Below, in pieces: positions 1 through 3,000 of a DNA stretch of 11,146 nucleotides. The DNA comes from Candidatus Micrarchaeota archaeon. Its GTDB lineage: Archaea > Micrarchaeota > Micrarchaeia > Norongarragalinales > SBBD01. The stretch lies in contig JBDRLB010000031.1 of NCBI GenBank assembly GCA_043813365.1, positions 1 to 11,146 on the forward strand, written 5' to 3'. The position numbers were made by a program. The stretch's first letter is position 1. Each line of letters begins with the position of its first letter.

Positions 1-3000
1 GGCGCTTGAGCAGCTGGGCGGATTTGACGAGGACAATATCGCGGAGGACATGGAGGTCGCGCTCAATTTGAGGAGAAACGGGTACGAAATAGTGACAACT
101 ACGGATGCGGTTGCATTCACCGAAACCCCGAACAACCTTAGGAGTTTCTACAAGCAGAGGATCAGGTGGTTCAGGGGCGCCATTTACAACGGCAGGAAAT
201 ATTTCTACATGCTCTTCAACCGCGCGTACGGCAATTTCGGGAAATTCGTTTTCCCGGTTTCATACATCATCCAGGCATTTTCCATAGTCATCATGGCAAG
301 GCTGGTATCGCTATATTTGGAGGGCATGCTGGCAATCCTTGCGGTTTTGCTGAATATTGCACCCGCATCCGCATCGCTCGTGGCGGATGTCCTTGCACCC
401 CATCTGCTCAGGCTGCAGAGCACGGTAATTTTCACAATAACAACTTTCCTCATTTGGGGGTACGTAGTCTACACTAGCTTCGGGATAGCCGGAAGGAAGA
501 TGAATGTTCGGCATTTGCTACCTGTTTTTATTTTTATGAGCATCTATCCTTTCGTGCTTGCCCTGATATATTTGATCAGTTTCATCAGGGAGATCGCAAA
601 GAGTGAGGCAAAATGGTGAGCGTTTTCATAAAAGCGGGAGTGATCGTGCTCCTTGTTTTCATCGGCAACGTATTGGTAGTGAAGAACATCGAGGACGGCA
701 GACAAGCGGAGGTGCAGGAGAAGCTTGCAAAAATGGAGAGGGAGGGCCAGACTTCAAAGCTGATGCTGCTTTACATGCAGACCTTGGACAAGGAGGACGC
801 GGCAGCGCTTTGCCCGGCGCTTGATTCGCTCACATCGGAGCAGATATTGGCGGCAAACAACCTGGCTTACCAGATAGACAAGTACAGGGAGGCCAATCTT
901 ATCGCCAGTTTGGAGGAGGCGCGGGAGCGGTACATCCTGAACAGCGTCGAGCTATGGCTTTACCTGAAGCAGCTGGAGGAGGTTTGCGGGATGAAGAAGC
1001 TTACTCCGATACTTTATTTCTACCCCGAGAAGGCCGCATGCCCCGAATGCAAGGTGCAGGCGGATATTCTGAATTCATATAGGGACAGGTGCACGAACGT
1101 TAGGGTATTTGCCTTCCCTGCAACGCGTGAAAACGGCATTATCAAAGTGCTCACGGCAAAATACAACGTCACCAAAACGCCCTCGCTTGTTATTAACGAC
1201 AAAACCTTTGGGGGAATAATCGGCGAATCCATCTTGAAGGAGGAAGTGCCGTGTGCATAAATTGAAATTTGTTGCGCCTTCGAACGCATCGCCCAGATGC
1301 CATTCAAGTGCCTTTGCCCGTCATTTATAAATATAATCAGAAATAACATTACGCTGTGCCCCGGTAGCTCAGCTGGTTAGAGCGGCTGACTGTTAATCAG
1401 CAGGCCGCAGGTTCGAAATGACTTGCCCCTTTCTTTTTAGAAAAAAGAAAGCGGCGGTGTCGCCGCTGGAAAGAAAAAATTGTCCTAATTCGCTAATCAT
1501 TAGCGCTTTCTTTGGCGGTGCCATACGCCTTTCTTTCTGGAAAGAAAGGCAAGGCAGCGAATATCCTGCCCGGGGCGCTTTTTTTAATTGCTATTGCTTA
1601 AGGGTTTGGTGAGTATTGTGGATGAGAAGCTAATTGCAAAAGTAACTGAAGAGATGCTAAAAAGGGCCGTTACTGATTTGCCTAAGGATGTAGAGGTTGC
1701 TCTTGCGGAAGCTGAGAGGGAGGAATTGAAAGCAAGGCAGGAAGTCGCCTCCGAACAGCTCTCAATTATCAATAAGAACATCGGGATTGCGAGGAGGAAA
1801 TGCGCCGCTCTTTGCCAGGATACGGGAACGTTGAGCTTTTTTGTAAAGGGAAAAACATTGACGAAGGAAATTGAGGCGGGGATTATTGAAGGAGTGCAAA
1901 ATGCAACTAAAAATGTGCCGCTGCGGCCGAATTCCGTTGATCCGCTTTCACGTAAAAATTTGGGCAACATCCCTTTCATCCACCTCGAATTTTCCGATCA
2001 TGATTATTTGGAAATTTCCGTGATTCCCAAGGGAGCGGGATGCGAGAACATGGCCGCGCTGTTCATGCTAAGGCCGTCTGATGGGATGGAAGGGATAAGG
2101 AAGGCGATTTTGACGCATGTTGCGGAGAAGGCGAGGAATGCTTGCCCGCCGATTGTTTTGGGCGTTGGGATAGGAGGGACGCCGGAAGAGGCGATGAGAG
2201 CCGCAAAGGAGAATCACCTTAGGAAATTGACGGACAGGAACCCGGACAAGGAATTGGCGGAATTCGAGAAACGGCTGAAGGATGAAATCAACCAGCTGGG
2301 GATCGGAACGATGGGATTGGGCGGGATAAAAACTGCTTTGACGGTGAAAGTTAAGAAAATCCCCTGCCACACCGCAAGTTTGCCGGTTGCGCTGAACATA
2401 GAGTGCTGGGCGGACAGGAGGTTGACTGCGAGAATTTTTGAAAATGGGAATATTGAGTATTTGGAGTGATAGCTTAGATGAAAATTGAATTGAAAACGCC
2501 AATCACGAAGGAGCAGGTCCTGAAATTGAAGTTGAATGATATCGTCTACATAAGCGGAAAAATCTTCTCGATCAGGGATCAGGCGATGAAGAGAATATTG
2601 CAGGAGAAGGATACGCATCCGGAATTGGAGGATGCGGCAATCTACAATTGCGGGCCACTGGTGAGGAAAAAGGGAAACGGATGGGAGCTGATTTCAGCAG
2701 GGCCGACAACTAGCAGCAGAATGAATGATCTGGCTGTTGAATTTATTCCGAGATTCGGGGTAAGTGCGATAATTGGGAAGGGAGGGATGAGCCAGAAAGT
2801 GCTGGAGGCGATGAGGGGGAAATGCGTTTACCTTTCGGCGGTTGGGGGAAGCGGTGCGGTTTCGGCGGAGCAATTGAAAGTTATGGGGGTGGAATGGGAA
2901 GATTTGGGGATGCCGGAGGCATTCTGGAAATTGGAGGCGGAAAAGTTCGGCCCGCTTATTGTAAGCATGGACGCGGCAGGCAACAGCTTATATGAAAGGA

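What a model noticed while it worked through the whole genome (the two positions that open the first line are those of the whole stretch)
1358..1576. Bulge-helix-bulge introns in the T-loop of at least 11 tRNA genes
tRNA-Asn(GTT) here, and at least 10 further tRNA genes, are interrupted at T-loop position 59/60 by inserts of 20-185 nt, some with additional D-loop or anticodon-loop introns. The further genes are C2 14730-14821, C40 37770-37950, C47 15759-15864 and 15933-16095, C59 14048-14257, C62 22916-23086, C65 2588-2827 and 5519-5723, C76 18278-18636 and C26 21021-21391. The intron's own 3' end pairs with the near-invariant T-loop nt 54-57 to make the splice motif. This explains why standard tools find only about 13-19 tRNAs in this genus.
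Evidence so far: RF00005 gives 19 hits in the own genome, 4 of them ending in the T-loop, and 13-17 hits in the 6 genomes of the genus against 20-40 in most other families. In-silico removal restores tRNAs with aragorn scores of 101-125. RNAfold of the Asn precursor gives z = -5.15, with the T stem stacked on a 4-bp helix flanked by two 3-nt bulges. That helix is complete in 7 of 10 genes and has 3/4 pairs in 1, with covariation. tRNA-Asn orthologues are continuous in 16 loci of other families. Five of six species of the genus carry a T-loop insert at the same site with differing content, and one has none. The exons are colinear. A 388-aa EndA is present.
(Added by a program. Inside this text positions count along the whole contig: contig position 1 is position 1 of the stretch shown here. 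"Call 12" and the like, gene names such as g00115 and contig names such as C1 are that model's own, and its searches are not shown. The text may have been shortened before it was handed on; [...] marks where a part breaks off. The agent that wrote the report below was given it as the finding of a first reader that could run no searches.)

Follow-up and report, generated by a model that had tools for sequence, protein, structure and literature searches.

The report
T-loop introns split many tRNA genes
This small archaeal genome interrupts its asparagine tRNA gene, and about a dozen others, with an intron in the T-loop; that kind of intron is already known, but here many copies carry a short repeated DNA element that comes and goes between sister species.

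Summary
Confirmed. Window 1358-1577 (+) is a tRNA-Asn(GUU) gene: 5' exon 1358-1417, 146-nt intron 1418-1563 between positions 59/60, 3' exon 1564-1576. T-loop nt 54-57 pair with the intron's 3' end. [quoted passage not shown] Excision gives aragorn 124.8.

Formal nulls are now run: 8 restored tRNAs against 0-1 in reversed or shuffled genomes. The 4-bp helix is complete in 8 of 13 genes, against 1.5% in control registers.

The genome encodes a three-unit epsilon2 EndA (E 2e-128 to ARMAN-2 EndA) and RtcB. No RNA data exist.

The kind is known: 59/60 introns in ARMAN-2, cut in vitro by that enzyme type. New here: 9 of 13 introns carry a ~50-nt two-hairpin repeat. It also sits in 37/38 introns, beside tRNA genes (twice with a duplicated 3' exon) and in other places. 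It is expanded in this genus, and the introns turn over between congeners.

The parts
1324..1334 (+). A/T-rich TATA-box-like element about 24-34 nt upstream of the tRNA 5' end (putative archaeal promoter)
   Evidence: Read from the sequence. The archaeal TATA consensus and its spacing are recalled, not tested.
1358..1417 (+). 5' exon of tRNA-Asn(GUU): acceptor 5' strand, D arm, anticodon arm (GTT), variable loop, T-stem 5' strand, T-loop nt 54-59
   Evidence: It is 100% identical over query 1-61 in G004 and 93% over 1-124 in G005.
1412..1415 (+). Central BHB helix, 5' strand: U54 U55 C56 G57
   Evidence: Paired with 1558-1561 in the MFE and centroid folds. 4/4 at the fixed register.
1416..1418 (+). 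5' bulge A58 A59 + first intron nt; inferred cut after 1417
   Evidence: The rule that the cut falls two nt into each bulge follows from the canonical geometry, where the helix holds nt 32-35 and the cut is 37/38 (PMC4090602, passage read).
1418..1563 (+). 146-nt intron at 59/60
   Evidence: Excision gives aragorn 124.8, tRNA-Asn gtt, 74 nt. Coordinates.
1419..1427 (+). Outer intron helix h', 5' strand. It pairs with 1548-1556, with a 1x1 mismatch and one unpaired G (1557) next to the central helix
   Evidence: This imperfection is why my strict BHB scan missed the gene.
1420..1474 (+). Repeat module copy 1, forward, with its GACTTGCC end facing the 5' splice site
   Evidence: nhmmer E 2.1e-10. 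98.3% identical over 60 nt to the Ser(GCT) intron on C76.
1491..1505 (+). Small central hairpin between the two module copies
1507..1555 (-). Repeat module copy 2, inverted, with its GGCAAGGC end facing the 3' splice site
   Evidence: nhmmer E 4.4e-11.
1558..1561 (+). Central BHB helix, 3' strand (CGAA), intron positions n-5 to n-2
1562..1564 (+). 3' bulge U A U; inferred cut after 1563, so that 1564 becomes U60
   Evidence: It gives a 7-nt T-loop.
1564..1577 (+). 3' exon: U60, T-stem 3' strand, acceptor 3' strand, discriminator G1577
1579..1585 (+). Run of seven T directly after the gene (likely terminator)
   Evidence: Sequence. That archaeal transcription terminates at oligo-T is recalled knowledge.

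Best explanation
Window 1358-1577 is the only tRNA-Asn(GUU) gene found in this assembly of a Micrarchaeota-type (DPANN) archaeon. It is interrupted by a 146-nt archaeal bulge-helix-bulge intron between T-loop positions 59 and 60.

Inferred pathway:
1. The gene is transcribed as one precursor of about 220 nt, from a TATA-like box at about -29 to a T7 run.
2. In the precursor the T stem serves as the outer helix. U54-G57 pair with the four intron bases n-5 to n-2. A58-A59-i1 and i(n-1)-i(n)-U60 form the two 3-nt bulges. The two outward-facing ends of the intron's repeat modules form the inner helix.
3. This is the same geometry as a canonical 37/38 intron. Both arms are a 5-bp stem with a 7-nt loop, and the intron follows the sixth loop nucleotide.
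4. The genome's three-unit epsilon2 splicing endonuclease cuts two nucleotides into each bulge.
5. RtcB joins the exons to give a normal UUCGAAU T-loop.

Twelve further tRNA loci of the genome are built the same way.

What is shown: the sequence anatomy, the statistics, the comparative conservation and the enzyme genes. What is inferred: transcription, cleavage and ligation.
For: Anatomy and fold: (z = -5.15, 0 of 200 shuffles fold as well).

Excision restores tRNA-Asn with aragorn 124.8.

Null tests:
- Eight restored loci, against 1, 0, 0 and 1 in reversed and shuffled genomes.
- A BHB-first scan with no T-loop anchor gives 26 interior junction hits at 18 loci, against 2, 1 and 1 in controls.
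- The central helix is 4/4 at the fixed register in 8 of 13 genes, against 1.5% of the other 4-nt windows in the same introns (binomial 3e-12).

Covariation:
- A57 always faces U (5 of 5 genes with a helix or near-helix: Leu, Ile, Val, Pro GGG, and Pro TGG by UUC/GAA).
- G57 faces C (4) or U (1).
- C55 in Arg(TCT) faces G.

All four junctions of Ile(TAT) chosen on cloverleaf grounds show 4/4 helices with 3-nt bulges.

Exons are held constant while introns diverge. The Asn 5' exon is 100% identical in G004, with an unrelated intron. The Ala(GGC) 5' exon is 100% identical in 4 of 5 congeners, which carry a 35-nt intron, a ~19-nt intron or none.

No second Asn gene appears among the 22 aragorn or 28 Rfam calls.

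The 388-aa EndA aligns end to end with ARMAN-2 epsilon2 EndA, 4FZ2_A, E 2e-128 (Pfam). That enzyme cut a 59/60 intron in vitro (PMC3239211, passages). RtcB is present.
Against: There is no RNA evidence of any kind.

The inner helix of the Asn motif is imperfect: 2 bp, a mismatch, 6 bp, and one unpaired G next to the central helix. My strict hBHBh' scan therefore missed Asn, Arg(TCT) and Pro(TGG).

Met(CAT) shows no central helix and has an A50xC64 mismatch in the T stem. Pro(TGG) has only 3 bp and a 5-nt bulge.

Cloverleaf criteria alone cannot separate 58/59, 59/60 and 60/61. Only the BHB rule does.

The intron contains T-rich tracts (a T5 at 1433-1437) that might terminate some transcripts.

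The assembly is 88.6% complete, so an intact second copy cannot be strictly excluded.
Confidence: 0.88

Rival explanations
1. The T-loop inserts are insertions of a miniature repeat that killed the genes. The loci would be pseudogenes and are never spliced.
For: Nine of 13 inserts carry a repeat that also occurs outside tRNA genes. There is no RNA proof. Met(CAT) lacks the helix and has a T-stem mismatch.
Against: Thirteen isoacceptors, including the only Asn, would be lost, and no intact copies are found. Exons stay 97-100% identical across species while the inserts diverge. The helix to nt 54-57 is kept by covariation. The same site is occupied in 5 of 6 species for Asn. The enzyme type is proven on 59/60 substrates.
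Confidence: 0.04
2. The two exons are expressed as separate transcripts and joined in trans (split tRNA), or the locus is a mis-assembly.
For: Split tRNAs exist in some archaea (PMC4033280, passages). The source is a metagenome-type assembly in 78 contigs.
Against: The exons are colinear, on the same strand and only 146 nt apart. One TATA-like box lies upstream and one T-run downstream. The same architecture recurs in four other independent assemblies of the genus. The intron itself supplies the complementary helix in cis.
Confidence: 0.03
3. The repeat inside the introns is not selfish DNA but a functional RNA or processing signal, for example a stable excised or circular RNA or a protein-binding platform for tRNA maturation. 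That function would be why it sits in introns and 3' trailers of tRNA genes.
For: Twenty-two of 29 copies lie in or next to tRNA genes. Two hairpins are kept by compensatory changes among subtypes, with a conserved loop motif, and G-U pairs favour one strand. In archaea some tRNA introns host box C/D RNAs (PMC4090602, passage).
Against: Copies occur in both orientations relative to tRNA transcription, with the same end always facing the splice site. Four of 13 T-loop introns lack it. It is missing from 30 of 35 other genomes of the order and from orthologous sites in congeners. No Rfam family matches.
Confidence: 0.2

Closest known systems
ARMAN-2 (Candidatus Micrarchaeum acidiphilum) pre-tRNA-Cys(GCA) with a 59/60 intron and pre-tRNA-Pro(GGG) with 53/54 + 59/60 introns, cut by the three-unit epsilon2 EndA (Fujishima et al. 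2011, PMC3239211; structure 4FZ2)
   Same: Same intron position. Same enzyme architecture: the 388-aa protein aligns over its full length, E 2e-128. The Pro(GGG) gene here (C43 219-443) has the same 53/54 + 59/60 arrangement.
   Different: Here 13 loci use 59/60. The introns reach 185 nt, against 13 nt for the assayed ARMAN-2 Cys intron. Most carry a repeated module. How many ARMAN-2 tRNAs have 59/60 introns is in supplements I could not open.
Canonical archaeal 37/38 hBHBh' tRNA intron
   Same: A 4-bp helix formed by the first four loop nucleotides with the intron's 3' end, two 3-nt bulges, and a 5-bp exon stem as the outer helix. The cut falls after the sixth loop nucleotide.
   Different: It is built on the T arm rather than the anticodon arm, so the near-invariant T-loop bases U54-R57 are sequestered until splicing. 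The outer intron helix is often relaxed.
Transposing intron families of Thermoproteales (Fujishima et al. 2010; known to me only through the reviews PMC4090602 and PMC4033280 and the 2026 preprint 10.64898/2026.10.13.758758)
   Same: [quoted passage not shown]
   Different: A different phylum and enzyme type. Copies also lie outside introns: 5 in tRNA 3' flanks and 7 elsewhere of 29. Two loci keep a duplicated 3' exon. I could not read the 2010 paper, so I cannot say whether it reports non-tRNA copies.
tRNA-Thr disruption by an integrating element in Caldiarchaeum subterraneum (Sugahara et al. 2012, PMC3293823, abstract read)
   Same: A tRNA gene sits next to a duplicated tRNA fragment separated by inserted DNA. 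The authors propose this as a route to intron gain.
   Different: There the insert is 1.8 kb and encodes a recombinase. Here the insert is about 90-105 bp with no gene, and the duplicated piece is the 3' exon.
[quoted passage not shown]
   Same: Many introns per gene (up to five there, four here), T-arm introns with good BHB motifs, standard callers miss them, and gains are repeated.
   Different: That study found almost no intron families shared between tRNA types (1.5% at 80% identity) and no arrival route. Here shared families are the rule.

Membership tests
Archaeal BHB (hBHBh') tRNA intron | Central 4-bp helix flanked by two 3-nt bulges on opposite strands | tested here: met
   UUCG(1412-1415)/CGAA(1558-1561), with bulges AAA and UAU. 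4/4 in 8 of 13 loci against 1.5% in control registers.
Archaeal BHB (hBHBh') tRNA intron | Outer helices on both sides (h from the exons, h' within the intron) | tested here: met
   h is the 5-bp T stem. h' is present but imperfect in Asn. My strict criteria recovered only 3 of 6 single-intron T-loop genes, so several are relaxed forms.
Archaeal BHB (hBHBh') tRNA intron | Removal at the bulge sites restores a standard cloverleaf | tested here: met
   Aragorn 124.8 for Asn. Other loci score 103-125. Nulls give 0-1.
Archaeal BHB (hBHBh') tRNA intron | A splicing endonuclease able to use non-canonical positions, and an RNA ligase, are encoded | tested here: met
   Epsilon2-type EndA. RtcB.
Archaeal BHB (hBHBh') tRNA intron | The intron is actually excised from the RNA | not testable with these tools
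   No RNA run is listed.
Intron family copied between tRNA genes ('intron transposition') | Closely similar intron sequence in tRNAs of different identity within one genome | tested here: met
   Asn against Ser(GCT): 59 of 60 nt. Seventeen module copies lie in 12 introns of 12 different tRNAs. A second family spans the 26/27, 37/38 and 53/54 introns.
MITE-like non-autonomous transposable element | Terminal inverted repeats | tested here: met
   Composite introns (Asn, Ser GCT, Ser TGA, Ile TAT) are inverted pairs of the module.
MITE-like non-autonomous transposable element | Target-site duplication of fixed length at insertion sites | tested here: inconclusive
   A 16-nt perfect direct repeat at Gln(CTG), a degenerate one at Val(TAC), and a 24-nt repeat at C74. 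No common length. The empty C56 site is too diverged to define ends.
MITE-like non-autonomous transposable element | An autonomous partner (transposase or integrase) with matching ends | not tested
   I did not search for one.
Group I / group II self-splicing intron | Match to the ribozyme families | tested here: not met
   No Rfam match in 1418-1563 at E<=1.
Split or permuted tRNA gene | Exons at separate loci or in reversed order | tested here: not met
   Exons are colinear and 146 nt apart on one strand.

The most novel reading that the evidence does not exclude
The 59/60 introns of this genus, and some of its 37/38 introns, are copies of a small tRNA-seeking mobile DNA repeat. This would be a living example of how archaeal BHB introns are gained.

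The element is a ~50-nt two-hairpin module, often present as an inverted pair. It lands in or beside tRNA genes with its GCCTTGCC end outwards. Loci with an intact tRNA, then the element, then a duplicated 3' exon (Gln CUG, Val UAC) would be intermediates. Copies whose outer bases can pair with T-loop nt 54-57 (or loop nt 32-35) survive as spliceable introns.

The T-arm and the anticodon arm would be the two favoured sites because they offer the same 5-bp stem and 7-nt loop scaffold to the epsilon2 endonuclease.
Probability: 0.45. Interest if true: 0.75.

Novelty: new member of a known kind. Interest (0 to 1): 0.5.

Why it matters
Practically, tRNA annotation of this lineage with aragorn or Rfam misses at least a third of the genes. 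Counts of "missing tRNAs" in such genomes should not be read as gene loss.

Scientifically, T-loop 59/60 introns and the epsilon2 endonuclease are already described, so the motif itself is not new. The value lies in the system. Six congeneric genomes have near-identical exons, and in them introns appear, disappear and switch between 37/38 and 59/60.

The introns belong to countable repeat families that also occur outside tRNA genes. Two genes look like gain (or loss) intermediates. How archaeal tRNA introns arrive is stated to be open both in the 2014 review (PMC4090602) and in the 2026 Asgard preprint. This genus offers filled and empty sites to test it.

Tried and rejected
1. RNA evidence: no RNA holder is listed. 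Laying four DNA runs on 1000-2000 recovered only short tRNA-like pieces of other organisms and said nothing about this locus.

2. A loosened T-loop/BHB scan that allowed one mismatch per stem gave 30,515 hits, against 16,128-18,608 in controls. It was useless and was dropped.

3. Free two-deletion scans of multi-intron genes give many near-equal solutions. C76 came out as Lys, with 61 hits. I therefore did not use them for identity, and fixed C76 and C26 by cloverleaf reading and then checked the motif.

4. A search for further tRNAs with an intact T arm gave 4 new hits, equal to the 4 in the reversed genome. None was accepted. Asp, Tyr, Trp, Phe and Gly(GCC) remain unfound.

5. The idea that the central helix is a target-site duplication of the palindromic TTCGAA was rejected. 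Loops reading UUCA pair with UGAG or UGGA, which are complementary, not duplicated.

6. The idea that the intron's 3' end is a degenerate copy of the T arm holds only for Asn and Gln, so I treated it as coincidence.

7. Viral link: a degenerate module pattern gave 2 matches in viral contigs, and neither holds a full module.

8. A 16-mer scan of genome contigs was mostly chance: 113 or more stretches, many bacterial. Nine loci hold a full module at E<1e-10. The six whose titles I saw are Micrarchaeota, Norongarragalinales or unclassified archaeal MAGs. I did not see the titles of L172, L190 and L196.

9. Stop-to-stop frames were not informative about the coding context of module copies.

Fujishima 2010 is not held. 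The supplements of Fujishima 2011 were not available.
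Full report
**1. What is at 1358-1577**

Reading the sequence gives a class I tRNA with anticodon GTT.
- The acceptor 5' strand starts at 1358.
- The D arm, anticodon arm and T-stem 5' strand follow, then T-loop nt 54-59 ending at 1417.
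- After 146 nt come one more loop base (1564), the T-stem 3' strand (1565-1569), the acceptor 3' strand (1570-1576) and the discriminator G1577.
- An A/T-rich TATA-like box lies at 1324-1334, and a run of seven T starts at 1579.
- The gene sits in the gap between plus-strand frames 613-1260 and 1588-2469.

ARAGORN sees nothing in the window. Rfam's tRNA model aligns 1363-1428 (41.3 bits) by pairing the T-stem 5' strand with intron bases. RNAfold of 1358-1577 gives -94.7 kcal/mol and z = -5.15. No shuffle of 200 folds as well.

**2. The motif**

In the MFE and centroid folds the T stem continues directly into U54-G57 paired with CGAA (1558-1561).
- On the 5' strand three unpaired bases follow (A58, A59 and the first intron base).
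- On the 3' strand U-A-U separate the helix from the T stem.
- Beyond the 5' bulge the intron ends pair: 2 bp, a 1x1 mismatch, then 6 bp, with one unpaired G beside the central helix.

The review PMC4090602 (passage read) says the canonical motif is a 4-bp helix containing the first two anticodon bases, flanked by two 3-nt bulges that hold the splice sites. That puts loop bases 32-35 in the helix and the cut after base 37, two bases into the bulge.

The T arm has the same 5-bp stem and 7-nt loop. Bases 54-57 in the helix and a cut after 59 are therefore the exact counterpart. Applying the same rule on the 3' side leaves U60 and a 7-nt loop. This equivalence is my inference from the geometry.

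**3. More than chance**

*T-loop-anchored scan.* The requirements were a T-stem 5-mer followed by T[TC]C[AG]A, a matching 3' stem 8-400 nt beyond its normal place, and a 7-bp acceptor, with no mismatch and at most 1 G-U.
- It gave 2409 candidates.
- After excision at 59/60, aragorn called a tRNA spanning the whole product at 8 loci, scoring 103.1-124.8.
- The reversed genome gave 1 (100.4, no proper anticodon). Three shuffled genomes gave 0, 0 and 1 (105.6, needing an extra 82-nt intron).

*BHB-first scan.* This used no tRNA anchor and tested about 645,000 motif candidates on both strands.
- It gave 59 junction-spanning tRNA calls.
- 33 of them merely clip the ends of intact tRNAs. 26 are interior, at 18 loci.
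- Controls gave 2, 1 and 1 interior calls, scoring 100-103.
- This strict scan recovered Arg(GCG), Ala(GGC) and Val(GAC). It missed Asn, Arg(TCT) and Pro(TGG), whose inner helices are looser.

**4. The set of T-loop introns** (coordinates)

| tRNA | Contig | Intron | Length (nt) | Note |
|---|---|---|---|---|
| Asn GTT | C31 | 1418-1563 | 146 | |
| Pro TGG | C2(-) | 14743-14762 | 20 | |
| Arg GCG | C40 | 37830-37937 | 108 | |
| Ala GGC | C47(-) | 15772-15806 | 35 | |
| Val GAC | C47 | 15991-16082 | 92 | |
| Met CAT | C59(-) | 14061-14137 | 77 | also a 60-nt 37/38 intron; aragorn 107.2, |
| Arg TCT | C62 | 22977-23073 | 97 | |
| Leu GAG | C65(-) | 2601-2703 | 103 | also a 56-nt D-loop intron; 112.3, |
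| Ser GGA | C65(-) | 5532-5619 | 88 | also a 35-nt anticodon-loop intron; 113.2, |
| Ser GCT | C76 | 18474-18623 | 150 | also 88 nt near 26/27 and 37 nt at 37/38; 112.2, |
| Ile TAT | C26(-) | 21034-21218 | 185 | four introns, see below |
| Pro GGG | C43 | 409-429 | 21 | also 88 nt at 53/54 and 42 nt at 37/38; 110.8, |
| Ser(TGA)-like | C40 | 98-239 | 142 | 5' end cut by the contig start |

Reading the cloverleaf gave four introns of 30, 48, 33 and 185 nt at about 9/10, 29/30, 37/38 and 59/60. The product scores 119.7. All four junctions show a 4/4 central helix with 3-nt bulges. I chose these junctions by eye, so the aragorn score is not independent. The four helices are.

With the 22 aragorn calls, Gln(CTG) on C42 and a fragment on C17, I count 37 tRNA loci. 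Thirteen of them have a 59/60 intron.

**5. The helix to nt 54-57**

At the fixed register the helix is:
- 4/4 in 8 of 13 loci: Asn, Arg GCG, Ala, Arg TCT, Leu, Ser GCT, Ile, Ser TGA;
- 3/4 in 2: Ser GGA, Pro GGG;
- 4/4 but with a 5-nt 3' bulge in Val GAC;
- 3 bp with a 5-nt bulge in Pro TGG;
- absent in Met CAT.

Other 4-nt windows of the same introns pair 4/4 in 1.5% of cases, which gives a binomial P of 3e-12.

The partners covary. UUCG faces CGAA, CGGA or UGAA. UUCA faces UGAG or UGGA. UCCG in Arg(TCT) faces UGGA.

**6. Enzymes**

One frame on C73 gives a 388-aa protein with two endonuclease catalytic-domain matches and an N-terminal domain. It aligns over residues 12-388 with 4FZ2_A, the ARMAN-2 endonuclease, at E 2e-128.

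Fujishima et al. 2011 (PMC3239211, passages read) showed that this three-unit epsilon2 enzyme cuts a 13-nt 59/60 intron of pre-tRNA-Cys in vitro. [quoted passage not shown]

RtcB is present, split over two contig ends.

**7. Relatives**

*Asn*.
- G005, G002, G003 and G004 have an insert at the same site, with partly or wholly different content. G001 has none.
- G001 and G002 have an extra D-loop intron.
- G006-G009, from other genera of the family, have anticodon-loop introns and a continuous T arm.

*Ala(GGC)*. The 5' exon is 100% identical in 4 of 5 congeners.
- G000 and G002 share a 35-nt intron with compensatory changes in its hairpin.
- G004 has a ~19-nt one.
- G001, G003 and G005 have none.

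*Arg(TCT)*.
- 59/60 intron in G000 and G004.
- Long 37/38 intron in G001 and G005.
- No intron in G003.

*Rfam counts at E<=1e-5.* The six genomes of the genus have 13-16 tRNA hits. The other 35 genomes sampled from the order have 2-40, and 8 of them have <=16.

**8. The repeat inside the introns**

Blast of the Asn intron against its own genome hit other T-loop introns, canonical introns and other places. An nhmmer profile found 29 copies in the genome and 0 in the reversed genome. Their distribution:
- 13 copies in nine of the 13 T-loop introns;
- 4 copies in three 37/38 introns (Leu TAA, Arg CCT, the C70 gene);
- 5 copies just downstream of tRNA genes (Val TAC, Gln CTG, Leu TAA, Pro CGG, Cys GCA);
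- 7 copies elsewhere.

The module reads GCCTTGC, then a pyrimidine/purine hairpin, then a G+C hairpin with a conserved loop, then AAAGAA. Subtypes differ by compensatory changes in both stems.

Inside introns the GCCTTGC end always faces the nearer splice site. Two copies, or one copy plus a short complement, therefore make the inner helix of the motif.

The Asn and Ser(GCT) introns share 59 of 60 nt.

A sequence-only covariance model finds 10-28 copies in each genome of the genus. It finds 3, 5, 1, 1 and 1 copies in five other genomes, and none in the remaining 30 of 35 genomes of the order.

A second family links the 53/54 intron of Pro(GGG), the 26/27 intron of Ser(GCT), the 37/38 intron of Cys, C17 and C19:32651.

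**9. Possible gain or loss intermediates**

*Gln(CTG), C42 10132-10271.* The gene has an intact T arm. It is followed by a module and then a perfect 16-nt repeat of its 3' exon plus trailer (10260-10275 and 10368-10383). G002 has the same arrangement. G001 has a plain gene.

*Val(TAC), C2 28603-28675.* The gene is intact. It is followed by a module and a degenerate 3'-exon-like piece (28771-28782). A strict BHB could join position 59 to that piece (aragorn 109.6, against 121 for the intact gene). In G001 the orthologue has a true 59/60 intron with a module and no proximal 3' exon.

*C56 copy.* It lies between two conserved genes and is missing at the orthologous spacer of G001-G004. The spacers are too diverged to define ends.

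*C74 copy.* It is flanked by a 24-nt direct repeat.

I read these as evidence that the elements move or are copied at the DNA level. The direction of change and the mechanism are not shown.

**10. Against what is known**

Position 59/60 is listed among known non-canonical sites (PMC4090602).

Similar introns in different tRNAs, at canonical and non-canonical sites, are known from Thermoproteales. There the mechanism "is still unknown" (same review; the 2010 paper itself is not held).

The 2026 Asgard preprint (abstract, section 2.5 and passages read) reports up to five introns per gene and found no general route of arrival.

My literature searches turned up no description of these repeats, or of a large set of 59/60 introns in Micrarchaeota. 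The searched library lacks most subscription papers and the relevant supplements.

**11. Verdict**

The observation and its interpretation stand. The Asn gene and 12 others carry BHB introns at 59/60, to be removed by an epsilon2 endonuclease.

This is a new and large set of members of a known kind. The repeat families, their spread beyond introns and the turnover within one genus are the part worth following up.

Noticed in passing
G000 C26 21020-21391 (-): tRNA-Ile(UAU) gene with four introns (30, 48, 33 and 185 nt at about 9/10, 29/30, 37/38 and 59/60). Each junction has a 4/4 BHB central helix. Aragorn scores 119.7 after removal.
   Followed up: yes
G000 C42 10132-10383 and C2 28603-28782: Intact tRNA-Gln(CUG) and tRNA-Val(UAC) genes are each followed by a repeat module and a second copy of the 3' exon. 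The second copy is a perfect 16-nt repeat for Gln and degenerate for Val. G002 shares the Gln arrangement, G001 lacks it, and G001 has a real 59/60 intron in Val(UAC).
   Followed up: partly
G000 C43 315-402, C76 18306-18357, C3 74-112, C17 2245-2305, C19 32651-32703: A second intron repeat family is shared by introns at 53/54 (Pro GGG), about 26/27 (Ser GCU) and 37/38 (Cys). It also occurs on two further contigs.
   Followed up: partly
G000 C17 about 2190-2327 (-), contig end: A partial tRNA has the same 3' half as Ile(UAU) on C26 but carries an insert after the T-stem 5' strand (53/54-like) instead of at 59/60. It may be a strain variant or a paralogue.
   Followed up: no
G000 C74 3820-3953: A repeat module just after a stop codon is flanked by a 24-nt direct repeat. 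The repeat includes the end of the upstream frame and the first 7 nt of the module.
   Followed up: no
G000 C27 11425-13434 and C7 31021-31758: RtcB is split over two contig ends. On C27 profile positions 1-50 and 42-194 lie about 1.4 kb apart in one 719-aa open frame, which suggests an intein or another insertion.
   Followed up: no
G000 C11 5156-5300 and C72 29700-29888: Downstream of tRNA-Leu(UAA) and tRNA-Pro(CGG) lies the same three-part arrangement: a G/C-run hairpin, a TTTGAT...ATCAAA hairpin, and an inverted module. It looks like the 3' half of a composite T-loop intron.
   Followed up: no
Genomes G011, G030, G014, G022, G016, G017 of the same order: These genomes have very few Rfam tRNA hits (2-14) but no copy of the repeat module. 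Their tRNA genes are probably disrupted in some other way.
   Followed up: no
window 7536-7644 (-) and 1775-1871 (+): Weak Rfam matches to IS009 (E 0.14, 21.3 bits against a 117 cut-off) and to Clostridiales-2 (E 0.43). Both are far below their gathering scores, so I take them as chance.
   Followed up: no
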